Assembly: GCA_046753405.1 (NCBI GenBank)
Contig: JBHHTN010000007.1
Coordinates: 1 to 20,879, forward strand
Direction: 5' to 3'
Origin: Candidatus Micrarchaeia archaeon
GTDB taxonomy: Archaea; Micrarchaeota; Micrarchaeia; Norongarragalinales; CAINOH01
Length of the DNA stretch: 20,879 nt
The notes under the pieces were generated by a model, which did not search any database, was not told the DNA's origin, and saw only the letters and a program-made list of their open reading frames with translations. Positions 1,714 to 20,879 of this stretch are shown here, piece after piece. How positions within the stretch are numbered: position 1 is the first letter of the stretch; every line of letters begins with the position of its first letter. Both the position numbers and the translations under genes were made by a program.

Positions 1714-2376
1714 TTGGTTTTGAAAAAGTTTCAACAAGACTTGCTGGTGTTATTGGCGCAGGAAGGCGCGCTTTACCGCTTTGTGAAGCTTACCACGGGG
1801 GAGTTGGCCGGGAAAGTGAGCGTTTCACAGCAAACTGTTTCTCGCTGGATTTCGGGTTTGGAAGAAGCTGGACTGATCTACAAAAACAAGCAAGGCTTTC
1901 GAATAACGCAGAGTGGCAGAGAGTTTTTGCAGGGAGTTCACTTGGCCTTGGACAAAGTGCTTTCGAAGAAGGCGGGCAGCGTTTTCTTGCAGGGAACGGT
2001 GACGGAGGGTTTTGGAGACGGCGCGTACTACACTTCCCTGCCGGAATACAAGAAACAGTTGAAAAAGAGCGTTGGCTTCGAAGCCTTTCCAGGCACTTTG
2101 AACATCCGTCTTTCTTCGGAAGAGGATTTAAGGCAGAGAATGAAGTTGGACTCCAAGACAGGGTTGCACGTGAGGGGGTTTACGAAAGGCAAGAGGAGGT
2201 TCGGTTCTGCAAAGTGTTTTCCAGCGCTTGTGAACGGAAAAGTGAAGGCAGCGGTGATTATTCCGCAAAGGAGTCATTACTCGGCGGAAGTGGTGGAGTT
2301 GATTGCGCCTCTGAAGTTGCGAAAGGCGTTGAAGTTGAAGGATAATTCGATTGTTGAAATTGAAGTAAAAGAATAG
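1714..2376 (+). CDS. ribK: CTP-dependent archaeal riboflavin kinase (MJ0056 family) fused to an N-terminal winged-helix HTH, i.e. an RbkR-like regulator/kinase
   Basis: The N-terminus carries an HTH (LTTGELAGKVSVSQQTVSRWISGLEEAGLI). The C-terminus carries archaeal RibK motifs (FPGTLNIRL, GKRRFGSAKCFPA). The start is TTG, with GGGTG about 9 nt upstream. Confidence 0.7.
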   Translation: MVLKKFQQDLLVLLAQEGALYRFVKLTTGELAGKVSVSQQTVSRWISGLEEAGLIYKNKQGFRITQSGREFLQGVHLALDKVLSKKAGSVFLQGTVTEGFGDGAYYTSLPEYKKQLKKSVGFEAFPGTLNIRLSSEEDLRQRMKLDSKTGLHVRGFTKGKRRFGSAKCFPALVNGKVKAAVIIPQRSHYSAEVVELIAPLKLRKALKLKDNSIVEIEVKE

Positions 2377-2386
2377 TTGAAAAAAA

Positions 2387-4312
2387 ATGGCTGGAAAATT
2401 TGAAAAACCAAAGGAGTACTTTTTGCACGGGCACAGGTCTTGCGCTGGGTGCGGTCCGGCTGTTGCCATGCGACAGTGCTTGCAGGCACTTGGCGACGAG
2501 ACGGTTGTGGTGAACGCCACAGGTTGCATGGAAGTTGTAAGCACGCAGTACCCTGAAAGTTCTTGGAACTTGCCTTACATTCACTCTCTTTTTGAAAACG
2601 TGCCGTCTGTTGCAAGCGGTGTTTCTCGCGCCTTCAAAAAATTGGGCAAAAAAGGGGTTGTTGTTGGAATAGGCGGCGACGGTGCATGTTATTCGCCCGA
2701 CACGAAAATTTTGACGGCCGATGGTTTCAAGTGGGTGGCCGACGTTTCAACTAAAGATATTCTTTGGAGCGTTAACCCTGACACCTTTGAGCTTGAATTG
2801 CAACCTGTTGAAAAACTGCATCAATATTTTTTTGAAGGAAAAATGGTGCGGGCAAATACGCGATACGTTGATTTTCTTGTTACTTCTAACCACAACATTC
2901 CTGCAATGTTTCGTAAATCTGGAAAAATAGTTTTTTTAAAGGCAGAAGAGCTGTTGAAAAAATATAAAACCTTGTTGCCAAGAAGTTTCAAGTGGCATGG
3001 AGAGAAGAAAGATAGATTTGTTCTTCCAAAACTTCCAAGCAAAACCAGTATGAGGCAGTATTCGTCTTTTGACGCTGGCGACTGGGCCGAATTTGTTGGC
3101 TGGTACGTTACCGAAGGCAGTTGTTATCATAGCGACAGTGGCTACCTTGTAAGAATTTATCAGTCAAATAAAAAGAACCGCAAGCATATTTTGCAGTTAG
3201 TTAGGAAAATGGGGTTGCGTGCTTCTGAGTGTAGTCGTTCTGTTGATATTTCATCCAAGCAGCTTTTTACCTGCCTCAAAAATACTTGCGGGGATTATTT
3301 TTACAATAAAAGAATTCCGAAAGACGTTCTTTCATTATCTTCTGACAAGCTTTTACGGCTTTTCGATGCAATGATTCGTGGCGACGGCTGCAAAGTTCGC
3401 CCAGGTAAGGGGAGAACTTCATTTAGAACAACTTTCATAACCAAGTCGTCGTACTTGGTAAGTCAATTTACCGAGCTTTGCTTAAAGCTTGGAAAAGGCG
3501 TTCACATAACTTATGATAATAGGAGGATAGCAAGAATTGGCGTTCAAGAGAAACATGTAAAAAACGAGTTGTATTCCACAAGAAAATTTTCCCAGGGAAA
3601 GACTCAAGTTTTTGAGGAGGATTATGAAGGAATAGTTTACTGTCCTCAACTTCCAAAGAACCATACGCTGATAATCGAACGAAATGGAAAAGTCTCGTTG
3701 AGCGGAAACAGTTACGACATCGGTTTCGGCGCGTTGTCTGGGGCGATGGAGCGAAACGAGGACATGATTTACATTGCCTACGACAACGAGTGTTACGCCA
3801 ACACAGGAGTGCAAAGATCGGGCGCTACTCCTATTGGCGCGGTTACTACCACCTCGCCTGCAGAAATTCACGGCAAAGCACAGTGGAAGAAGAACTTGCC
3901 GTTTATTGCCGCCGCGCACGCTATTCCTTACGTTGCAACAAGTAGCATTGCGTTTATTCCGGATTTGAAAAAAAAGCTGCAAAAGGCAAAGGAAAAAAAG
4001 GGCTTTAGGTTGGTTCACGTTCACGCGCCTTGCCCTCTTGGCTGGAGGTTCGATTCGGGGAAAACAATTGAAGTTGCACGCCTTGCAGTCCGATGCGGTT
4101 TGTGGAACTTGTTTGAAATTGAAAACGGTCTCTTCAAGCAGTCAATGCGTTTTCCAAAGTTGGTTGATGTTGAGGATTACTTGAAATTGCAGGGAAGATT
4201 CAAGATACTTGATGAACAACAGTTGAAACAAATCAAGGAACACCTTGCGCGTGTTCAAACAGAATTGAAAAAGCTTGAGGACGCCAAACTGAATTTAGAG
4301 TACTTTTTGTAA
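2387..4312 (+). CDS. porB: 2-oxoacid:ferredoxin oxidoreductase beta subunit (TPP-binding), interrupted by an intein
   Basis: The N-extein (CAGCGP, GIGGDGA) and C-extein (SYDIGFGALSG, YDNECYANTGVQRSGATP) match PorB. The 641-aa ORF is about 340 aa longer than a typical beta subunit. Confidence 0.9.
   Translation: MAGKFEKPKEYFLHGHRSCAGCGPAVAMRQCLQALGDETVVVNATGCMEVVSTQYPESSWNLPYIHSLFENVPSVASGVSRAFKKLGKKGVVVGIGGDGACYSPDTKILTADGFKWVADVSTKDILWSVNPDTFELELQPVEKLHQYFFEGKMVRANTRYVDFLVTSNHNIPAMFRKSGKIVFLKAEELLKKYKTLLPRSFKWHGEKKDRFVLPKLPSKTSMRQYSSFDAGDWAEFVGWYVTEGSCYHSDSGYLVRIYQSNKKNRKHILQLVRKMGLRASECSRSVDISSKQLFTCLKNTCGDYFYNKRIPKDVLSLSSDKLLRLFDAMIRGDGCKVRPGKGRTSFRTTFITKSSYLVSQFTELCLKLGKGVHITYDNRRIARIGVQEKHVKNELYSTRKFSQGKTQVFEEDYEGIVYCPQLPKNHTLIIERNGKVSLSGNSYDIGFGALSGAMERNEDMIYIAYDNECYANTGVQRSGATPIGAVTTTSPAEIHGKAQWKKNLPFIAAAHAIPYVATSSIAFIPDLKKKLQKAKEKKGFRLVHVHAPCPLGWRFDSGKTIEVARLAVRCGLWNLFEIENGLFKQSMRFPKLVDVEDYLKLQGRFKILDEQQLKQIKEHLARVQTELKKLEDAKLNLEYFL
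2687..3709 (+). mobile_element. Intein (341 aa) with a LAGLIDADG homing endonuclease, inserted in the GDG TPP-binding motif of PorB
   Basis: It starts CYSPDTKILTADG (intein block A) right after GIGGDGA. Two LAGLIDADG blocks are present (WAEFVGWYVTEGS and LLRLFDAMIRGDGC). It ends ...VSLSGN followed by Ser +1 (SYDIG). The predicted spliced product GDGA-SYDIGF matches the native PorB motif. Confidence 0.8.
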
Positions 4313-5855: not shown

Positions 5856-5985
5856 TTCAGACCTCTCAAAGCATATATAATTCTGTTTGGAATAATTTTT
5901 TCATTAAAGTATTTAATGCGCTTGCTTCCTTAATTTAAGGAGAGGGTGCTTTTTTTTTAATTTTGTTTTATTGGAGAGTGGTTTT

Positions 5986-8490
5986 ATGAGGAACGGAAAA
6001 TACTTGTTTACGTCTGAGTCGGTTACCGAGGGGCATCCTGACAAGGTATGCGACCAGATTTCCGACGCGGTTTTGGACTCTATTTTTGAAAAAGACCCCA
6101 ACGGCCGCGTTGCAGTTGAAGCATTGGTGACAACGGGACAAGTGGTAATAGCAGGAGAGGTTAGGACAAACGCTTACGTTGACGCTGCTGGCATTGCCAG
6201 GAAAGTAATCAATGATATTGGGTACACTGACGCGGAACTTCAGTTTTCCGGGGACAGTTGCGGTGTTTTGGTTGCAATTCACGAGCAGTCTCAAGACATC
6301 GCGCAAGGTGTTGACGAAGGCGAGAAAAAAGAGCAGGGTGCAGGCGACCAAGGACTCATGTTCGGGTACGCCTCGAACGAAACTCCTGAATTGATGCCGT
6401 TGCCGATTATTTTGGCTCACAAGCTTACAAAAAAACTTTCAAAGGCAAGAAAAAGCGGGGAGATTCCTTATCTTAGGCCGGATGGGAAAAGCCAGGTAAC
6501 TGTTGAATACGACGGGAACAAGCCGGTTCGCGTTACCGCAGTTGTCATTTCAACGCAGCACTCCGACGAGGTTTCAAACGAGCAAATACGAAAAGACGTT
6601 ATTGAAAAGGTAATAAAGCCGGTTTGCGGCGACTGGTTGAAAGACGACACCAAGTTTTTCATCAACGCAACAGGACGCTTTGTTTTGGGAGGGCCCGCGG
6701 CAGACACAGGCGTAACAGGAAGAAAGATAATCGTCGACACCTACGGCGGGCACGGAAGCCATGGGGGCGGCGCGTTTTGTGTTTCCGGGGAGTCAATCGT
6801 AAATTCGGAGAAAGGTTTGGCGCCAATTAACGAACTTTCTTCTCTTCCTTCTGGTTCGCTTGTCAAAACGGATGTTTCTCCAACTCCAATGGAAACATGG
6901 CTTGACAATGGAGTTATGAGTACTTTACGGTTAGAAACAAAAGATGGTTACGGGCTTGAAGGCACGCCAAACCAATGCATTCGTGCGATTGATTTCAAGG
7001 GTAATTACGTTTGGCGGCGTTTTGACGCGATTCAGTCAACTGACTGGGTTGCAATACAACGCAAGAACAGGTTGTTTGGCCAAAAATCTGTTGTGAATTT
7101 TGAATTTAAACACAAAAAAGCCGCGCATAGAAAAAACGATTTTTCTTTTCCTGCGGAGCTTACCGAAGACTATGCTTATTTGCTTGGCCTTTTAACCGGC
7201 GATGGCATGTGCACTACGCGTGACGGCGTGCGAGTATGCGTTTGCGAAAAACAAATGGAAGAAGTCGTGCAATCCTTGTTAACTCGTCTGTTTGGAAAAA
7301 AAGGCAAGATATTCGGACACTGGGCGCATTATTGCGGAGTGGAACTGCGAGCTTATCTGGAACAATTGGGTCTTGGTTATTGGCGTTCATGGCAAAAAAA
7401 AGTACCTGCCAGTGTTTTGAGCGCGCCAAAAACCACTGTCGCAGCTTTTATTCGCGGTTTGTTTGACGCTGACGGTACTGTTAGAAGAACCGGAAGAAAC
7501 AAGAATTCTGTGGAAGTGAAATTGACCACGACTTCCAAAGAACTTGCATTAGGAGTTCAACAATTGTTGTTGAACTTTGGAATAGTCTGCGCAATTCAAA
7601 CGGTGCAAACAACCGGGAAAACCTCGCGCATTCGCAACCGGACTGTTCGTTCTGCAAGGCCTCTTTACCACGTTCGTGTAAAAGGCGTTGACAGTGTTCG
7701 AATCTTCCAAAAAGAAATCAATTTTGCGCTTGCTCGCAAGGCCAAGATTCTAAACAACATTGAAAACTCGTCAAAACGCAGTCGTCTAACTATTCCAAAC
7801 CAGCGCGAGCGCGTGAGGAGGCTTTGGTTAAAGCTTTCCTCAAGTGAGCATCAGAAAGACCGCGCCGGCGTTGGGCACTGGTTGCGCAATCCAAGCACCA
7901 AAGGTACAAAGGAACTTACTTACGCCAAAATGATTGATTTTATTGACGCTTACGAAACAAAGTTTGCAGGCAATAATGATTTTGAGTACTTGAGAACGTT
8001 TTTTGTCATGAATCATTATTATTCGAAAGTCAAATCTACGCAAAAAAGTCAAAGTCACGTTTATGACTTTGTTGTTCCCGGAGCCCATGCGTTTACTGCC
8101 AACGGTTTTGTGTGCCACAATTCTGGAAAAGACCCTTCCAAGGTTGACCGTTCGGCATCTTACATGGCCAGGTACATTGCGAAAAACATTGTTGCAGCTG
8201 GTTTGGCCGACCAGTGCGAAGTACAAATTGCGTACTGCATTGGAGTGGCAGAACCGGTGTCGGTTTTGGTCAGCACTTTTGGCACGAACAAGATTCCTGA
8301 AGAGAAGATTGCCCAGCTTGTTCGCGAGCACTTTCCGCTTAAGCCCTCGGAGCTTATCGAGCACTTGAACCTGCGCAGGCCGATTTTCAGGAAAACAGCT
8401 GTGTACGGCCACTTCGGACGCGAAGACCCTGATTTCACGTGGGAAAAAACGGACAAAGCAGACGAGTTGAAGAAAGCGGCAGGGCTTTGA
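5986..8490 (+). CDS. metK: S-adenosylmethionine synthetase of the bacterial/eukaryotic MetK type, interrupted by a large intein
   Basis: MetK motifs are present: [42 protein letters not shown] before the insert, and [14 protein letters not shown] / [14 protein letters not shown] after it. The ATG is at 5986; the tracked ORF begins at an upstream TTG at 5971. Confidence 0.9.
6778..8121 (+). mobile_element. Intein (448 aa) with a LAGLIDADG homing endonuclease, inserted in the GGGAF|SGKD triphosphate-binding loop of MetK
   Basis: It starts at the Cys right after HGGGAF (CVSGESIVN...). LAGLIDADG blocks are [14 protein letters not shown] and [14 protein letters not shown]. It ends ...GFVCHN followed by Ser +1 ([11 protein letters not shown]). 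The predicted spliced product [16 protein letters not shown] is the canonical MetK motif. Confidence 0.85.
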
Positions 8491-8719: not shown

Positions 8720-11182
8720 ATGAGGAAGTCTGTTCGGTCCAAAAAGGTTTCAGCGTCAAAGGCTGCAAAGTCTAAAGACCAAGACCCTTCTTTTTTGAAA
8801 GACTTCAAGTCTACTGCTGAAATTCACGTTTCTGAAAAACTGGTTGACCAGATCATCGGCCAGGAAAAAGCCGTTGAAGTAATAAAGAAAGCGGCAAGGC
8901 AAAAGAGGAACGTTTTGCTCATCGGCATTCCCGGAACCGGCAAAAGCATGATTGCACAGGCAATGAGCGAGCTTATTCCGCTTCAAGAGTTGCAGGACAT
9001 TATAGTTGAAGCAAATCCGGATGACGAAAACGTTCCTAAAATAAAAGTTGTGAAAGCAGGGGATGCGCGAAAATTCGTTGCAGCCGAAAAAACCAAAGGC
9101 AAAATGGCCGGAGGCAACATAAACATCGTGTTGTTCGTTTTCATGGCCTTGTCTACCATGGTTCTCTTGTACTTTGGACCCGGGTTTTTCGGCGAAGTCA
9201 TCACGGCCGCGCTTTTAATCGGGTCGTTCATGATGGGCGCAGGACTCATGTTTGCCTCGCAACTCGGACGAGGCCGCCTGATGGCCGAGGCAGAGTCATT
9301 GAAAGTGCTTGTGGACAACAAGGGAAGGAAAAAAGCTCCTTTTGTTGAGGCAACAGGAGCCAAGGCAGGGTCTTTGCTTGGCGACGTGAGGCACGATCCC
9401 TTTCAATCTACAATTGACGAAACAAAATTGTATGTTAGGCGTAGTGGTGGAATGCAGAAAATTTCTTTTGGAGCTCTTTGGAAAGAGATGGTTAAGAAGT
9501 ATCCTGACTTGTTTGAGCGTCGTGAGGATGGTTACGAAGCAATAATGCTTCCCGAAAGTGAAGAGCTTTACACGCTTGGAGTAAAGGATGGGCAGGTTGT
9601 GGCAACGAGAATGCTTGTTATTAACCGCCGTCCATTTAAGGGAAAAATTGTTGCTACTTATTCAAATAAAGGACTGCTTGAAACTACTCCTGAACATGCG
9701 TACATTCTTTCTGACAAAGAGAAAAAAGCATCAGAACTGGATGCTGATGACGAGCTTTTGATATTGCAGGATAAGCAAATTGTCGAGGAAAAAATTTCTT
9801 CTAAATCGGAGAAGGATTTTGACGGTTGGGTTTACAACACTACGACGGATACTGGGAATTTTTTTGCCAACGATGTTCTAATTCACAACTCCGGCGGTCT
9901 TGGAACTCCTCCGCATTTGCGTGTTGAGGCGGGTTTTGTTCACAAGGCTAATAAGGGGGTTTTGTTTGTTGATGAAGTTGCGACTTTGAGGCAGAAGAGC
10001 CAACAAGAGTTGTTGACTGCAATGCAGGAGCGAAAGTACTCGATTACAGGTCAAAGCGAGATGTCAAGCGGGGCCATGGTGAGAACCGAGCCAGTTCCGT
10101 GCGATTTTGTTTTGGTTGCAGCGGGTAATTACACTGACTTGCGCAAGATGCATCCGGCTTTGCGCTCCAGGATAAGGGGTTATGGTTACGAGGTTTACAT
10201 GGAGAAGTCTATTCCAAGCAATGTTGAAAACATAAAGAGGCTTGTCCAGTTCATAGCGCAGGAAGTTAAAAAGGACGGTAAGATTCCGCATTTTGACAAA
10301 AGTGCGGTAGTTGAAATAATCAAAGAAGCACACAAGAGATCTGGTCGCAAGAATAAGCTTACTTTGAAGCTTCGCGACCTTGGCGGTTTGATTCGTGCTG
10401 CTGGGGACCTGGCAAAAGAGCAGGGCGCGCACCATGTTTCTGTTTCTCATGTTAGACGGGCAAAAGTGATTTCAAGTACTTTGGAGCAGCAGGCAATGGC
10501 GCAGTATATTTCCATTAGGAAGGATTACCAAGTGTTTCAGACCAGAGGCAAAGCCATTGGAAGAGTCAATGGTTTGGCGGTGATGGCTGACGCCGGGCTT
10601 GTGCTTCCGATTGTTGCAGAGGTCAGTCCTGCTGCAAGCAAGCTTGAGGGAAAAATTATTGCAACTGGCAAGCTTGAGAAAATTGCCGAGGAAGCAGTGC
10701 AAAACGTAAGTGTCATTATCAAAAAGCATTTGGGAAAAGACACGTCCAACTACGACGTGCACGTTCAATTTTTGCAGACTTATGAGGGAGTGGAAGGAGA
10801 CAGTGCCAGTGTTTCTGTTGCAACCGCGGTTATTTCCGCGTTGGAGGAAGCGCCCATTGACCAGAATATTGCAATGACTGGCTCGTTGTCGGTTCGCGGA
10901 GAGGTTTTGCCAGTGGGCGGTGTTACTGGGAAGGTTGAAGCTGCAATTGAAGCGGGTTTGACAAAGGTGCTTGTTCCCAAGGCAAACGAGGGAGACATTG
11001 TGCTTGAAGAGGCAAAGTTGAAAAAAGTGGAAATCATCCCAGTGTGCGACATCTTCGACGTTTTGGATCACGCGTTGTCAAAGTCAAAGAAGAAAAAGCA
11101 ATTGCTTGGAACAATCAAAGAAGAATTGGGAGGATCATTTGAAAGTTTTTCAGATGTTATTAAGACAAGGCGCGAAAAGTAA
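8720..11182 (+). CDS. lonB: Archaeal membrane-bound ATP-dependent Lon protease (LonB), interrupted by a mini-intein
   Basis: Walker A is GIPGTGKS. Two TM helices are inserted in the AAA module (NINIVLFVFMALSTMVLLYF and ITAALLIGSFMMGAGLMF). GDVRHDPFQ and SGGLGTPPHLRVEAGFVHKANKGVLFVDE flank the insert. There is a C-terminal Lon protease domain (SVATAVISAL, GEVLPVGGVTGK). Confidence 0.9.
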   Translation: MRKSVRSKKVSASKAAKSKDQDPSFLKDFKSTAEIHVSEKLVDQIIGQEKAVEVIKKAARQKRNVLLIGIPGTGKSMIAQAMSELIPLQELQDIIVEANPDDENVPKIKVVKAGDARKFVAAEKTKGKMAGGNINIVLFVFMALSTMVLLYFGPGFFGEVITAALLIGSFMMGAGLMFASQLGRGRLMAEAESLKVLVDNKGRKKAPFVEATGAKAGSLLGDVRHDPFQSTIDETKLYVRRSGGMQKISFGALWKEMVKKYPDLFERREDGYEAIMLPESEELYTLGVKDGQVVATRMLVINRRPFKGKIVATYSNKGLLETTPEHAYILSDKEKKASELDADDELLILQDKQIVEEKISSKSEKDFDGWVYNTTTDTGNFFANDVLIHNSGGLGTPPHLRVEAGFVHKANKGVLFVDEVATLRQKSQQELLTAMQERKYSITGQSEMSSGAMVRTEPVPCDFVLVAAGNYTDLRKMHPALRSRIRGYGYEVYMEKSIPSNVENIKRLVQFIAQEVKKDGKIPHFDKSAVVEIIKEAHKRSGRKNKLTLKLRDLGGLIRAAGDLAKEQGAHHVSVSHVRRAKVISSTLEQQAMAQYISIRKDYQVFQTRGKAIGRVNGLAVMADAGLVLPIVAEVSPAASKLEGKIIATGKLEKIAEEAVQNVSVIIKKHLGKDTSNYDVHVQFLQTYEGVEGDSASVSVATAVISALEEAPIDQNIAMTGSLSVRGEVLPVGGVTGKVEAAIEAGLTKVLVPKANEGDIVLEEAKLKKVEIIPVCDIFDVLDHALSKSKKKKQLLGTIKEELGGSFESFSDVIKTRREK
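9407..9889 (+). mobile_element. Mini-intein (161 aa, no endonuclease domain) in the DPFQ|SGGLGTP motif of LonB
   Basis: It starts with Ser (STIDETKL...) and has a Hint block B-like LLETTPEHAYIL. It ends VLIHN followed by Ser +1. The predicted spliced product DPFQSGGLGTP matches the native archaeal LonB motif. No LAGLIDADG or HNH blocks were seen. Confidence 0.7.
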
Positions 11183-17069: not shown

Positions 17070-17336
17070 ATGAATGTTGAAACTTTAAAAGATGAAGAAG
17101 GGTTTTTGGAAGTAAAGCTTTCAGGAGAGGACTTGGGCGTTGCAAGCTTGGTTGTAGAAAGGCTTTTGCATAACAAGTCCGTTGCTTTTGCAGGCGCAAA
17201 GCTTGACCATCCTATCAAGGGAAACCCCGTGATAACCGTCAAGGCAAAGAATGCAAAAAAAGAATTGCAAAAAGCTGTTTCCGAGGTTGCAAAGGACATG
17301 GATAAGTTGCAGAAGGAATTGGAAAAAGCCAAGTGA
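17070..17336 (+). CDS. rpoL: DNA-directed RNA polymerase subunit L (Rpo11)
   Basis: The product is about 88 aa. FLEVKLSGEDLGVASLVVERLLHNKSVAFAGAKLDHP matches the RpoL/Rpb11 fold pattern. GGGAG lies 13 nt upstream of this ATG. The tracked ORF starts at a TTG at 17061. Confidence 0.7.
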   Translation: MNVETLKDEEGFLEVKLSGEDLGVASLVVERLLHNKSVAFAGAKLDHPIKGNPVITVKAKNAKKELQKAVSEVAKDMDKLQKELEKAK

Positions 17337-17349
17337 GTTTTTGCTGCTT

Positions 17350-18177
17350 ATGGCACGTTCCAAAAAAACAAGTAATCGTAAAAAGCAAGAAAAAGCCGTT
17401 GAAGCTTCTTTTTTGTCACAGTACGCTCATTACTTGGCTCTTGTAACCTTTCTGGCGTTGTACTTGTTCTTTTCAAACACTGCTTTGCAACTTCTTTTTG
17501 GAGTTTTAGTGTTCCTTTCGCTGGTTTTTGTTCTTGTGAAAGAGTTGTCTCCGTCGGATTGGAGCAAAAGCGGGCTTTTGGAGTTTGCAAGGGAAACAGG
17601 AACTGCTTTTGTTGCTGCTTTGGTTTTCTGGTTCTTGATTTCTTTTTTGCTTTACACGTCGAAGCCTTTGGATGTCGTAACTTCGTGCAGCATGCGTCCG
17701 GTTCTGGATCGAGGGGACATGATTGTGATACAAGGCGGGAGTGTTAAAGCGCAGGTGGTGGAGGTTCAAAACGAGTCAAAGCCGTTTGTTCCCTTAAGGC
17801 GGGTTTGCACGAGAACTTTCAACGACGGGTCAAACGTTTCGCTTCTTTGTACTGCGGGTCTTGAAATAGAAGGAAACGAGTATTTGTTTGACAAGTCAAA
17901 CGATGTCATAGTCTTTGATTCCAACTCGGTTGGCGGTTTGGTGGTGCACCGTGTGGCGCTTGCAATAACAACCGTTGATGGTAAAACAAGGTTTTTGACT
18001 AAAGGAGACAACAATCCTTCGCTTGACCAAGAAGCACGCTTTTTTCCAGCTGTTGAAGAAGAAAGCGTTCATGGAAGGCTTTTGTTTCGCATTCCGTTGA
18101 TTGGATACTTGAAATTGCTGCTCTTTGGGCAGTTTCAAACGCCTCCTGGGTGCGAGTCAGCGCAAACAAACCTTTGA
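17350..18177 (+). CDS. Signal peptidase I of the archaeal/eukaryotic Sec11 type
   Basis: The ATG (MARSKK) is followed by a TM helix and the catalytic Ser box VVTSCSMRPVLDRGDMIVIQG, which resembles SGSMEPxLxxGD. The tracked ORF start at 17251 overlaps rpoL and is unlikely to be real. Confidence 0.75.
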   Translation: MARSKKTSNRKKQEKAVEASFLSQYAHYLALVTFLALYLFFSNTALQLLFGVLVFLSLVFVLVKELSPSDWSKSGLLEFARETGTAFVAALVFWFLISFLLYTSKPLDVVTSCSMRPVLDRGDMIVIQGGSVKAQVVEVQNESKPFVPLRRVCTRTFNDGSNVSLLCTAGLEIEGNEYLFDKSNDVIVFDSNSVGGLVVHRVALAITTVDGKTRFLTKGDNNPSLDQEARFFPAVEEESVHGRLLFRIPLIGYLKLLLFGQFQTPPGCESAQTNL

Positions 18178-18258: not shown

Positions 18259-19008
18259 ATGCAGCTTCAGGTAGATGACGCCAAGTTCTTCAAGCAGTGC
18301 GTGGATGCAATTGTAAACTTGGTTGAAGAAGGCACTTTTGACGTTTCTTCCCAGGGTTTGAAGCTTCGTTCAATGGACCCGTCACAAATTGCCATGGTTG
18401 ACTTTTCGTTGCCAAAAGAAGCGTTCAAAAAACTTGAAGCCGACTCTGGCGCGCTTTTGGGCGTTAACTTGTCGGATTTAAGCAAAGTTTTGTCTCGTGC
18501 TAGAAGTAGCGAGTCACTGACAATTTCAGTTGACGAAAAAGAAGCCAATAAGTTGGAGCTTGAATTCAAAGGTGAAAGCAGGAGAAACTTCAAACTACCT
18601 CTTTTGGATTTGTCTGCGTCAACTGCTAAGGAACTCAAAATACCTTTTGCTGCGAAAGTGAAAGTGAAGGGGGGAGCGTTCAAAGACTTGCTTAAAGACG
18701 CTGCGTTGTTGTCCTCGCACGTCGCGCTTGAGGCGGACGAAAACGCTTTTTTCGTTGACGCTCACGGCGATGCTGGGGATTTGCGGACGGAAACTAAAAA
18801 AGACACGTCCTCAATTTCAGAGTTGAAAACAACGGAGAAAGCGCGTTCAATGTTTCCATTTGAATACCTTGACGATATTTCCCGTGCTTGTCCGGACGAG
18901 GAAGACATGTCAATAGAACTTAAAACAGACGCTCCTGTAAAAATTTCCTATAAAATCGGAAAAGCGCAACTTTCCTACTTTTTGGCACCGCGCGTGGAAA
19001 CAATCTGA
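18259..19008 (+). CDS. pcn: DNA polymerase sliding clamp PCNA
   Basis: The 249-aa product has the PCNA N-terminus (FFKQCVDAIVNLVEEGTFDVSSQGLKLRSMDPSQIAMVDFSLPKEAF) and an acidic C-terminal half. Confidence 0.85.
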   Translation: MQLQVDDAKFFKQCVDAIVNLVEEGTFDVSSQGLKLRSMDPSQIAMVDFSLPKEAFKKLEADSGALLGVNLSDLSKVLSRARSSESLTISVDEKEANKLELEFKGESRRNFKLPLLDLSASTAKELKIPFAAKVKVKGGAFKDLLKDAALLSSHVALEADENAFFVDAHGDAGDLRTETKKDTSSISELKTTEKARSMFPFEYLDDISRACPDEEDMSIELKTDAPVKISYKIGKAQLSYFLAPRVETI

Positions 19009-19060
19009 TTCAGGAGCGGAAAGTCAAGGATTAAAATGCGTTTGAACTCTTCTTATTGTT

Positions 19061-20299
19061 ATGGCTGCCTCAAGCCGTAAATTCCGCGCTTCCTCTGGTG
19101 CTTTGTCCAAGGTCAGGTCCAAGCAGGGTTTGAAGTTCAAGTGGAAAGGGCACTTGCGAACCATTTTGAAGCATTATCAGAGTTTTTACGGTTTAAAAGA
19201 CGTCGGCACAATCGAACGGGCATTCTGGTTTTCGGCAAAAGCGCATGAAGGGCAAAAGCGTGCAGACAAAAAAACCGATTACTTTTCGCACCCGGTTTTT
19301 GTTGCAGGGCTTGCCGCGCAAACGGGTTCTGACGCGAAGATAGTCGCCGCCTGTCTTTTGCACGATGTTGCCGAAGACTGCAACGTTTCTTTTCATACTC
19401 TTAGAAAAAATTTTGGAAGAGAAATTGCCGGAATAGTTGACTTTGTTTCAAAGCCAAAGGTTTCAGGGAGCAATTGTGTTCACTTGCACGATCCCCGTTA
19501 CACTAAATTGAATGACGAGCATCACTTTCCGAAAGGCGATTTGTTGCGGTTGGCGTCTTCGGAGTATTTTTACCAGCGTCTTCACAGTTTGGGCGGTTCA
19601 AGGCCTCTTTTCGTCAAGCTTTTTGACAACTTGCACAACATGCAGACAATTACGAATTTGAACCGGCAAAAGAGAGAAGTCAACATTTCAGAGTGCCTAA
19701 AGTATAATTTGTGGATTGCCCAGAAGGTGCATCCGCGGCTTTACAAACAGTTTTTGAAAGCAGTGTACAAGGGGCTTAAGTCCGTTGGAAAAAACAAACG
19801 GGAAATCCAGCTAATTGTCCGGGGAAACGTTCCTCGCAATAGAAAGCGAGCTGCTGACCGAATTATTAAAACTCATCGTTTGTTTGACTATGATTACTTT
19901 CGGGCTTTTGTGCCCGAAGACGAGAAAACCGTTTTAGTGTATCACTTGACGGACAGTGGAAAGCGTTTTATTCGTCTGCCTCGCGGGGGAGTGCTGGCAA
20001 GACTTTCTTACCTTCCAAGCACGCAAGTTGTCATGCGAAGATTTCCTAAAATTTCAAGCATGCGTAAGGAGACTGAAAAAAGGATGATTAAAAATGCGAA
20101 GGGCATTCTTGAAAAAGAAAAACTTAAAGTGAAATTTACAAGGCATAACTACCCGTTGTTTTACCGCAACGCGTGCCTGTTTGAATTAATGCAAAGTGTT
20201 AAGCAACTGCCTAATTCGAGGCTTTCCAGAGTGCTTGGAAAAATCGAAGAAAAACACTTCAAGCGGGGTTTGCGTCGTTTCAACGTGAAAAAGGGTTAA
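19061..20299 (+). CDS. RelA/SpoT-homolog HD-domain protein (small-alarmone-hydrolase-like (p)ppGpp hydrolase domain) with an unrecognised ~200-aa basic C-terminal extension
   Basis: AHEGQKR, HPVFVAGLAA, LLHDVAEDC, TLRKNFGREIAGIVDFVSK and KLFDNLHNMQTI match the conserved blocks of the RSH hydrolase domain in order. The C-terminal ~200 aa are K/R-rich and show no synthetase motifs. Confidence 0.7.
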   Translation: MAASSRKFRASSGALSKVRSKQGLKFKWKGHLRTILKHYQSFYGLKDVGTIERAFWFSAKAHEGQKRADKKTDYFSHPVFVAGLAAQTGSDAKIVAACLLHDVAEDCNVSFHTLRKNFGREIAGIVDFVSKPKVSGSNCVHLHDPRYTKLNDEHHFPKGDLLRLASSEYFYQRLHSLGGSRPLFVKLFDNLHNMQTITNLNRQKREVNISECLKYNLWIAQKVHPRLYKQFLKAVYKGLKSVGKNKREIQLIVRGNVPRNRKRAADRIIKTHRLFDYDYFRAFVPEDEKTVLVYHLTDSGKRFIRLPRGGVLARLSYLPSTQVVMRRFPKISSMRKETEKRMIKNAKGILEKEKLKVKFTRHNYPLFYRNACLFELMQSVKQLPNSRLSRVLGKIEEKHFKRGLRRFNVKKG

Positions 20300-20316: not shown

Positions 20317-20879
20317 ATGACTCCGCGGGAACTTAAAGAATTGAAGGGGAAGCGCAGGGTTTGCGCGCTTACTTGCTATGATTATTCATCTGCACGGGTT
20401 TTGGATCGTGCAGGTGTGGACGTTCTTCTTGTCGGCGATTCTTTGGGCATGGTTGTTTTAGGTTATGATGACACAAAGAGCGTGACTATGCAAGACATGT
20501 TGTCTCACACCGCGGCAGTATGCCGCGGCGCTCAAAAGACTTTGGTTGTAGGCGACATGCCCATTGGCACTTACGGCTCTTCGCAAAAAGCGTTGCAAAA
20601 CGCAAAGTGCTTCATTGACGCCGGCGCGCACGCCGTGAAACTTGAAGGCCCTGTTTTCGAACAAGCAAGGTTGTTAGTTGAAAACAAGGTTCCCGTGATG
20701 GGGCATCTTGGCTTGCTTCCGCAGACTGCCAAGGATTACAAAGTGCAAGGCAAAACACAAGGGGAAGGCGAAAAAATTTTGAAGGACGCGGTTGCCTTGG
20801 AAAAAACAGGCGTGTTTGCAATTGTTTTGGAGTGTGTTCCCTCAAGCCTTGCAAAAAAAATCACTCAAACAATTTCAGT
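20317..20879 (+). CDS. panB: 3-methyl-2-oxobutanoate (ketopantoate) hydroxymethyltransferase, 3'-truncated by the window edge
   Basis: LTCYDYSSARVLDRAGVDVLLVGDSLGMVVLGYDDT and VVGDMPIGTYG are canonical PanB motifs. It starts at the ATG at 20317 and is open to the window end, so it is absent from the ORF track. Confidence 0.8.
   Translation, partial: MTPRELKELKGKRRVCALTCYDYSSARVLDRAGVDVLLVGDSLGMVVLGYDDTKSVTMQDMLSHTAAVCRGAQKTLVVGDMPIGTYGSSQKALQNAKCFIDAGAHAVKLEGPVFEQARLLVENKVPVMGHLGLLPQTAKDYKVQGKTQGEGEKILKDAVALEKTGVFAIVLECVPSSLAKKITQTIS

What the first reader, a model, noticed from the sequence alone, without database searches (positions are those of the whole stretch)
19061..20299. RelA/SpoT-homolog (p)ppGpp-hydrolase-type HD domain in an archaeon, fused to an uncharacterised basic C-terminal domain
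All conserved blocks of the RSH hydrolase domain are present in order (AHEGQKR, HPxxVA, LLHDVAEDC, FGREIAGIVDFVSK, KLFDNLHNMQT). No synthetase domain was detected. RSH proteins are rare in archaea. The ~200-aa K/R-rich C-terminal extension has no motif I recognise; it could be a nucleic-acid-binding or ribosome-association module. Its position in a pcna / rsh / panB housekeeping block argues that it is a resident gene rather than a recent mobile acquisition.
Basis: partly seen in the sequence, partly recalled or inferred. Interest (0 to 1): 0.65.

Follow-up and report, generated by a model that had tools for sequence, protein, structure and literature searches.

The report
RSH-type hydrolase with orphan domain
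A gene in a tiny uncultured archaeon (Micrarchaeota) encodes an enzyme with the intact catalytic core of the bacterial ppGpp ("alarmone")-degrading domain, joined to a fast-evolving basic domain that matches nothing known; it is a rare lineage-specific variant of a well-known enzyme family, not a new kind of system.

Summary

Best reading: a monofunctional Mn2+-dependent 3'-(pyro)phosphohydrolase acting on (p)ppGpp-like nucleotides. Because no (p)ppGpp synthetase is known in this lineage and the gene is linked to panB/panK, a shift of substrate to NADPH- or CoA-type nucleotides remains a live rival. New variant of a known kind; moderate interest.

The parts
19061..20299 (+). Complete gene: 412-aa RSH-type HD_4 hydrolase fused to an orphan C-terminal domain. 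Identical to NCBI MFQ5405710.1, 'HD domain-containing protein [Ca. Micrarchaeia archaeon]'.
19030..19036 (+). TATA-like element (ATTAAAA) 25-31 nt upstream of the ATG. Suggests an own promoter and a leaderless or near-leaderless mRNA (inference). Equivalent TTATTATA elements sit at the same distance in orthologous loci.
   Evidence: sequence
19061..19195 (+). Basic N-terminal leader (aa 1-45) containing the family-conserved KW.G.L..IL..Y..F helix (W28 and F42 invariant).
19196..19795 (+). RSH hydrolase (HD_4) domain plus the following helices that are homologous to long-RSH N-terminal domains (aa ~46-245).
19259..19261 (+). HD1 motif, Arg67 (RelSeq R44; stacks on the base).
19289..19291 (+). 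HD2 motif, His77 (metal ligand; RelSeq H53).
19361..19381 (+). HD3 His101-Asp102 (metal ligands) and HD4 Glu105-Asp106 (activate the nucleophilic water), followed by the family-specific Cys107 (EDC where long RSHs have EDT).
19460..19570 (+). Family-specific insertion (aa 134-170, about 22 residues longer than in bacterial RSHs) following the invariant K131-P132-K133.
19625..19648 (+). HD5 Asp189 (metal ligand) with Asn190 replacing the canonical Arg/Lys; HD6 Asn193; Thr196 (RelSeq T151).
19796..20296 (+). Orphan basic α/β C-terminal domain (aa 246-412; pI ~11). It has a five-stranded sheet and a long helix in the AF2 model. Invariant residues: G300, R305, P307, L350, P365, R369, L373. A variable insertion lies around aa 308-335.
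20317..20879 (+). panB (3-methyl-2-oxobutanoate hydroxymethyltransferase), 5' part cut by the window end. It starts 17 nt after the HD stop, preceded by AGGA, and is probably co-transcribed. A type II pantothenate kinase-like gene follows on the parent contig.
18259..19008 (+). PCNA, the upstream neighbour. It is part of the conserved Micrarchaeota backbone and not of the HD-panB block.

Best explanation
The gene encodes a monofunctional, catalytically competent RSH-family (RelA/SpoT-homologue) hydrolase. A Mn2+ ion would be held by His77, His101, Asp102 and Asp189. The Glu105-Asp106 pair would activate water to attack the 3'-(pyro)phosphate of a purine nucleotide, whose base is positioned by Arg67, Asn193 and Thr196. 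The most likely substrates are (p)ppGpp/(p)ppApp-type 3'-pyrophosphorylated nucleotides. The HD domain most resembles those of bacterial long RSHs and was probably acquired from bacteria, as proposed for other DPANN RSHs. The synthetase and TGS/ACT parts are absent. In their place is a lineage-specific, rapidly evolving basic α/β domain that most plausibly tethers or regulates the enzyme, for example by binding a polyanion such as RNA. The gene heads a small transcription unit with panB and a type II pantothenate kinase in a metabolic gene block found only in one Micrarchaeota sub-lineage. Shown here: family membership, conservation of the catalytic residues, absence of other RSH domains, orphan status of the C-terminal domain, phyletic distribution and synteny. 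Inferred: metal dependence, substrate, role of the C-terminal domain, and operon structure.
For: HD_4 scores 60.5 bits against a 27.2-bit cutoff, while generic HD at 20 bits is below its 22-bit cutoff. All members hit HD_4. TIGR00691 matches aa 54-222. The best PDB relatives are Rel/RelA/SpoT N-terminal domains, then Mesh1 and SAHs. HHalign of the family N-terminal part against 60 long RSHs gives 99.9%, E=8e-38. Motifs HD1-HD6 as defined in PMC9293644 are invariant in five members: R67, H77, H101, D102, E105, D106, D189, N193; T196 is T or S. Orthologues at 35-49% identity still keep these residues, which implies purifying selection on catalysis. No SYNTH, TGS or ACT domain was found. The C-terminal domain is conserved in 4-5 members with a consistent predicted fold at pLDDT 72. 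Positive charge is family-specific: HD cores have pI 8.5-9.7 against a median of 5.7 in 112 bacterial HD_4 cores, and the C-terminal domain has pI 9.6-11.0. The archaeal context and synteny are shown.
Against: No (p)ppGpp synthetase is known in Micrarchaeota, and I could not scan the genomes for one. (p)ppGpp was undetectable in the archaea that have been tested (PMC8646023). The HD5 Arg/Lys partner is replaced by an invariant Asn190, and a ~22-aa insertion lies near the active site; both could mean altered specificity. The conserved position at the head of panB-panK has no obvious link to alarmone turnover. RSH hydrolases in ppGpp-free organisms, such as MESH1, use NADPH (PMC9894426). Part of the basic charge may reflect a generally basic proteome, since PanB has pI 8.8 and LonB 9.2.
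Confidence: 0.5

Rival explanations
1. Same fold and chemistry, but the substrate has shifted. The enzyme would be a MESH1-like phosphatase acting on a 2'/3'-phosphorylated adenine-nucleotide cofactor (NADPH, CoA/dephospho-CoA, or pAp) and would be functionally coupled to pantothenate/CoA biosynthesis through the HD-panB-panK unit.
For: The gene lies immediately upstream of panB in 4 of 5 known contexts, with a 4-nt overlap or a 12-17 nt gap and an own TATA-like element. PanB and a type II PanK-like gene are confirmed. HD5 Arg/Lys is replaced by an invariant Asn190, and there is a family-specific insertion. There is precedent: MESH1 and a Xanthomonas SAH dephosphorylate NADPH, with MESH1 doing so in organisms lacking ppGpp synthetases (PMC9894426). 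(p)ppGpp is not detected in the archaea tested (PMC8646023).
Against: These genomes are close relatives (PCNA 71-87% identical) in which the gene order of the whole region is conserved, so adjacency alone is weak evidence for functional coupling. The P0002 copy is not next to panB. HD1 Arg, HD6 Asn and Thr196, which position the guanine base in Rel, are all retained. By sequence the domain is closer to long-RSH HD domains than to Mesh1.
Confidence: 0.27
2. An RNA-directed enzyme. The basic leader and C-terminal domain would bind tRNA, rRNA or the ribosome, and the HD site would remove a 3'-(pyro)phosphate from RNA ends, for example reversing toxSAS-type pyrophosphorylation of the tRNA CCA end.
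Against: No significant structural or sequence match to any RNA-binding domain was found. There is no toxSAS or other toxin gene nearby. PADLOC gives no hit. The local proteome is itself basic.
Confidence: 0.1
3. A decayed long RSH: the C-terminal domain would be a degenerate, unrecognisably diverged synthetase (pseudo-SYNTH) domain kept for allosteric control of the hydrolase.
For: The HD domain is most similar to those of long RSHs, and homology continues through the helices that precede SYNTH in Rel, to about aa 245. The C-terminal part is α/β, roughly SYNTH-sized, and evolves fast.
Confidence: 0.05
4. A generic HD-superfamily phosphohydrolase unrelated to RSH function, or a non-catalytic HD pseudoenzyme.
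For: NCBI annotates it only as 'HD domain-containing protein'. Pfam aligns only the first half of HD_4 in the query itself.
Against: HD_4 greatly outscores generic HD. In orthologues HD_4 aligns to profile positions 1-137. TIGR00691 and PDB Rel alignments cover both halves. All six RSH motifs are in place and invariant.
Confidence: 0.02

Closest known systems
Hydrolase (HD) domain of bacterial long RSHs (Rel/SpoT; e.g. RelSeq 1vj7, T. thermophilus Rel 6s2t)
   Same: These are the closest sequence relatives (E 1e-17 to 1e-12; 30-38% identity over aa ~45-245). The HD1-HD6 motifs are the same, as is T151. There is no extra residue after HD1 in most members. The helices following the HD core are shared.
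   Different: There are no SYNTH, TGS, helical, zinc-finger or ACT domains. HD5 has Asn where Arg is expected. The motif is EDC, not EDT. A ~22-aa insertion follows SKPK. The pI is basic. A new C-terminal domain is present. The host is archaeal.
Small alarmone hydrolases / Mesh1 (e.g. RelH Cg, PaSAH, human MESH1 3nr1/5vxa)
   Same: Monofunctional: a hydrolase without a synthetase. The catalytic motifs are the same. Mesh1 sets the precedent for an RSH hydrolase working in an organism without ppGpp synthetases, and on NADPH.
   Different: SAHs are single-domain proteins of ~180-220 aa, whereas this protein is 412 aa with an added ~165-aa domain and a basic leader. Sequence similarity to SAHs and Mesh1 is weaker (E 1e-8 to 0.1) than to long RSHs.
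RelA/SpoT homologues reported in other DPANN archaea (Diapherotrites, Woesearchaeota, Pacearchaeota, Nanoarchaeota; PMC8407392)
   Same: These are RSH-family genes in DPANN archaea, inferred to have been acquired from bacteria.
   Different: Micrarchaeota are not in that list. The architecture of those proteins was not examined here. The present family was found only in Micrarchaeota and has its own C-terminal domain.
HTH(XRE)-HD_4 proteins of ~271 aa from Clostridia-type bacteria (P0100-P0116)
   Same: An HD_4 domain fused to a non-RSH domain. They share the EDC variant of HD4 and a W-containing helix before the HD core.
   Different: The extra domain is an N-terminal DNA-binding HTH, not a C-terminal α/β domain. 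They keep the HD5 Arg. Similarity is weaker (E 1e-8 to 1e-5).

Membership tests
RSH superfamily hydrolase domain (Pfam HD_4, PF13328) | Scores above the HD_4 gathering threshold and better than generic HD (PF01966) | tested here: met
   60.5 bits against a 27.2-bit cutoff; generic HD scores 20 bits against a 22-bit cutoff. Orthologues score 45.8-71.3 bits. HHalign against long RSHs gives 99.9%.
RSH superfamily hydrolase domain | HD1 Arg (RelSeq R44), which stacks on the base | tested here: met
   R67, invariant in 5 members. Motif definition from PMC9293644.
RSH superfamily hydrolase domain | HD2 His, HD3 His-Asp and HD5 Asp as Mn2+ ligands | tested here: met
   H77, H101-D102 and D189, all invariant.
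RSH superfamily hydrolase domain | HD4 Glu-Asp pair (nucleophilic attack) | tested here: met
   E105-D106, invariant.
RSH superfamily hydrolase domain | HD5 Arg/Lys following the metal-binding Asp | tested here: not met
   Asn190, invariant in all 5 members. PMC9293644 notes that some SAHs also lack the R/K at this position.
RSH superfamily hydrolase domain | HD6 Asn (RelSeq N148), with T151 supporting HD1 | tested here: met
   N193 is invariant. T196 is T in 4 members and S in L171.
RSH superfamily hydrolase domain | Mn2+-dependent hydrolysis of (p)ppGpp to GDP/GTP plus PPi | not testable with these tools
   Requires a biochemical assay.
Long RSH (Rel/RelA/SpoT) | Synthetase domain (RelA_SpoT, PF04607) C-terminal to the HD domain | tested here: not met
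Long RSH (Rel/RelA/SpoT) | Regulatory C-terminal region (TGS, helical, ZFD/RIS, ACT/RRM) | tested here: not met
   No Pfam hit. HHalign against whole long RSHs gives 0.05%.
Small alarmone hydrolase (SAH) class | HD domain only: a small single-domain protein | tested here: not met
   412 aa, with a conserved extra ~165-aa C-terminal domain and a basic leader.
Small alarmone hydrolase (SAH) class | Placement in one of the 11 SAH subfamilies of Jimmy et al. (subfamily HMMs) | not tested
   The subfamily HMMs are not available here. The classification is described in 10.1101/575399.

The most novel reading that the evidence does not exclude
This is not an alarmone hydrolase. It would be an archaeal RSH-fold phosphatase recruited to cofactor metabolism, removing the 3'-phosphate of CoA or the 2'-phosphate of NADPH (or acting on pAp or a pantetheine nucleotide) as a regulator or salvage step in the horizontally acquired panB-panK CoA pathway of less host-dependent Micrarchaeota. 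The orphan basic domain would supply substrate or partner specificity. That would be a second, independent case, after MESH1, of the ppGpp-hydrolase fold being repurposed outside bacteria, with a new accessory domain.
Probability: 0.2. Interest if true: 0.65.

Novelty: new variant of a known kind. Interest (0 to 1): 0.4.

Why it matters
Whether archaea use (p)ppGpp-type signalling at all is unresolved: the nucleotides were not detected in model archaea, and RSH genes are sporadic. This family gives a concrete test object. It is a catalytically intact RSH hydrolase, vertically maintained in one Micrarchaeota sub-lineage, lacking a synthetase domain and carrying a domain with no known relative. 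If it hydrolyses (p)ppGpp, these archaea must meet alarmones, whether their own or from neighbours or hosts. If it prefers NADPH- or CoA-type substrates, it would be a second MESH1-like repurposing of the fold. The orphan domain is also a candidate new fold or accessory module. The family is very small (5-6 sequences from uncultured organisms), which limits both its generality and the strength of any inference.

Tried and rejected
2. Diverged TGS, ACT or zinc-finger domain: rejected.
4. The full-length AF2 model from a 2-sequence alignment was too poor to use (pLDDT 48).
5. A profile search of the 5.8-billion-protein word index with the C-terminal alignment returned nothing, not even the query. 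I regard this as a failure of the candidate step, not evidence; the exhaustive HMMER scan is the valid result.
6. The afdb50 fold library was unavailable.
8. Defence-system or toxin-antitoxin association: no PADLOC hit and no SAS neighbour.
9. The taxonomic origin of the nearest HD relative, P0003, could not be read from its contig.

Full report
**Observation.** The ORF at 19061-20299 (+) is real: ATG start, 412 aa. The identical protein is deposited as MFQ5405710.1, 'HD domain-containing protein [Candidatus Micrarchaeia archaeon]'. The parent 42-kb contig is clearly archaeal. It carries Csl4, RpoL, PCNA, PriS, a PriL-like gene, GINS51, L44e, aIF2α, LonB, DUF373 and archaeal-type PEP carboxylase.

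**N-terminal half.**
- Pfam HD_4 (the RelA/SpoT hydrolase family) scores 60.5 bits against a 27.2-bit cutoff, while generic HD scores 20 bits, below its 22-bit cutoff.
- TIGR00691 (spoT_relA) aligns aa 54-222 to its first 147 positions.
- The best solved-structure relatives are Rel/RelA/SpoT N-terminal domains (E 5e-14 to 4e-12), followed by Mesh1 and small alarmone hydrolases.
- HHalign of the family's N-terminal alignment against 60 long RSHs gives 99.9% probability, E=8e-38.
- Using the HD1-HD6 motif definition of PMC9293644, the query has HD1 R67, HD2 H77, HD3 H101-D102, HD4 E105-D106, HD5 D189 and HD6 N193, plus T196 (equivalent to RelSeq T151). All are invariant in five full-length family members, apart from a T/S change at 196.
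- The one departure is the HD5 partner residue. The canonical Arg/Lys is an invariant Asn190.
- Other family-specific traits are EDC in place of EDT, an invariant KPK (131-133) followed by an insertion of about 22 residues, and a conserved W-containing helix in a basic leader.

**What is not there.** No synthetase, TGS, helical, zinc-finger or ACT domain is detectable by Pfam, even at E<=10. HHalign gives 0.24% against 70 synthetase regions and 0.05% against whole long RSHs.

**C-terminal half.**
- Homology to RSH N-terminal domains runs to about aa 245, so the remaining ~165 aa are the real novelty.
- It is a genuine domain and not a low-complexity tail. An exhaustive HMMER scan of 1.84 billion representative proteins with a C-terminal profile found the query, P0002, P0117 and P0118, and nothing else. 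All four have the same leader–HD_4–C-terminal domain architecture. Conserved blocks are shared, including the invariant G300, R305, P307, L350, P365, R369 and L373.
- AlphaFold2 on the four-sequence alignment gives a moderately confident α/β model (pLDDT 72.2, pTM 0.63) with five strands and a long helix.
- The domain is basic in every member (pI 9.6-11.0). The HD cores are basic too (pI 8.5-9.7), against a median of 5.7 for 112 bacterial HD_4 cores. Neighbouring proteins are also rather basic, so the charge argument is only suggestive.

**Distribution and context.**
- Among one genome for each of 185,579 species, full-length matches occur only in two Micrarchaeota MAGs; all other hits are bacterial long RSHs that match only the N-terminal part.
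- Neighbour inspection through PCNA homologues found a fifth full-length member (L171, 55% identical to P0002). A metagenome scan found one truncated member, L094.
- In the window, L083, L085/L004 and L171, the order is …Csl4–RpoL–x–PCNA–(orf)–HD–panB(–type II PanK-like).
- The HD stop overlaps the panB start by 4 nt in two loci and lies 12-17 nt upstream of it in the other two. Each HD gene has a TATA-like element 25-31 nt upstream of its ATG. I infer an HD-panB-panK transcription unit separate from PCNA.
- Other Micrarchaeota with the same backbone (PCNA 61-67% identical) lack the HD gene. Two of them run from PCNA through a single intervening ORF to PriS–GINS–L44e.
- The HD gene is therefore part of a lineage-specific block of metabolic genes inserted between PCNA and PriS (panB, panK, and variously RNR, CobO, PEP carboxylase). 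This fits the reported gain of biosynthetic genes by horizontal transfer in some Micrarchaeota orders (PMC12892359).
- The gene is 'resident' within that sub-lineage, but it is not housekeeping.
- It evolves faster than its neighbours: 35-49% identity overall and 24-42% in the C-terminal domain, against PCNA 71-87%, PanB 58-74% and PanK 58-61%. The catalytic residues stay fixed throughout.

**Mechanism.** Established knowledge of RSH hydrolases (PMC9293644) implies the following. Mn2+ is bound by H77, H101, D102 and D189. Water is activated by E105 and D106. The base is positioned by R67, N193 and T196, and the 3'-(pyro)phosphate of a purine nucleotide is cleaved. I commit to a monofunctional (p)ppGpp/(p)ppApp-type 3'-pyrophosphohydrolase as the most likely activity (confidence about 0.5), with the orphan basic domain acting as a tether or regulator.

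The main rival (about 0.27) is a MESH1-like shift to NADPH- or CoA-type nucleotides. It is motivated by four points:
- No (p)ppGpp has been detected in the archaea tested (PMC8646023).
- There is no known synthetase in this lineage. I could not test this.
- The HD5 Arg/Lys-to-Asn change.
- The conserved position at the head of panB-panK.

MESH1 and a bacterial SAH do dephosphorylate NADPH (PMC9894426). An RNA-3'-end activity (about 0.1) and a decayed-synthetase origin for the C-terminal domain (about 0.05) are less likely. A generic or dead HD domain is effectively excluded.

**Comparison with known families.** The protein works like, and is a member of, the RSH hydrolase (HD_4) family. It is not a long RSH, because SYNTH and the C-terminal regulatory region were tested and not found. 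It does not fit the single-domain definition of an SAH. RSH homologues are known from a few euryarchaea (PMC3153485) and from several DPANN phyla (PMC8407392), but Micrarchaeota were not listed, and I found no description of this architecture.

**Verdict.** This is a new variant of a known kind, of moderate interest (0.4). The enzyme class is ordinary, but the orphan domain, the restricted archaeal distribution and the open substrate question make it a reasonable target for a small biochemical study.

Noticed in passing
window 5971-8490 (+): An 839-aa bacterial/eukaryal-type S-adenosylmethionine synthetase (MetK; PF00438/02772/02773) is interrupted by an intein with a LAGLIDADG homing endonuclease (aa ~318-717). 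A MetK of this type carrying an intein in a DPANN archaeon is unusual.
   Followed up: no
window 8720-11182 (+): Archaeal LonB (820 aa) has its AAA+ module split by about 300 aa (matches at aa 43-96 and 403-485). That is larger than I recall (from memory, not checked) for the membrane-anchor insertion usual in archaeal LonB, so a second intein or another insertion is possible. No intein Pfam hit was listed.
   Followed up: no
L083 ~9965-10000, L085 ~9915-9955, L171 ~3545-3581: The upstream regions of the orthologous HD genes share a near-identical promoter-like pattern, (c)TTATTATA(c)…TTTTCACTT(c/t)TT…ATG, with the TATA-like box about 30 nt before the start codon. The window has ATTAAAA at the same distance, but the rest differs.
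   Followed up: partly
between PCNA and PriS in L002, L083, L085 versus L168, L170: The PCNA–PriS interval is a variable region of the Micrarchaeota chromosome. It holds a single ORF in some genomes and 6-12 kb of metabolic genes in others (panB, type II PanK-like, class II RNR, CobO-like, RsmB-like methyltransferase, VapBC/PIN, archaeal PEP carboxylase).
   Followed up: partly
P0100-P0116 (bacterial proteins, ~271 aa): A family of XRE-type HTH + HD_4 fusion proteins, named Clostridia in one record, shares the unusual EDC variant of the HD4 motif and a W-containing helix before the HD core with the Micrarchaeota family.
   Followed up: no
window 1714-2376 (+): A winged-helix HTH is fused to a CTP-dependent riboflavin kinase (PF01982), an archaeal RbkR-like regulator/kinase architecture.
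   Followed up: no
window 17251-18177 (+): A 308-aa protein has an archaeal signal peptidase I match confined to aa ~215-288. It has a long, basic N-terminal extension of unknown function containing transmembrane-like segments.
   Followed up: no
L083 15429-16391: A second, generic HD-domain protein (PF01966, 320 aa) lies in the same inserted block of the P0117 genome, four genes downstream of the HD_4 gene.
   Followed up: no
L085 9995 / L004 7914-9284; L171 3528-4712: Start codons of two orthologues look mis-called. P0118 (GTG start) is probably 13 aa longer, as in P0119/MFA6049287.1 (MKKPPS…). The L171 ORF probably starts at the internal Met (MAPKTPRQ…, nt 3582), not 18 codons upstream where it would overlap orf124.
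   Followed up: partly
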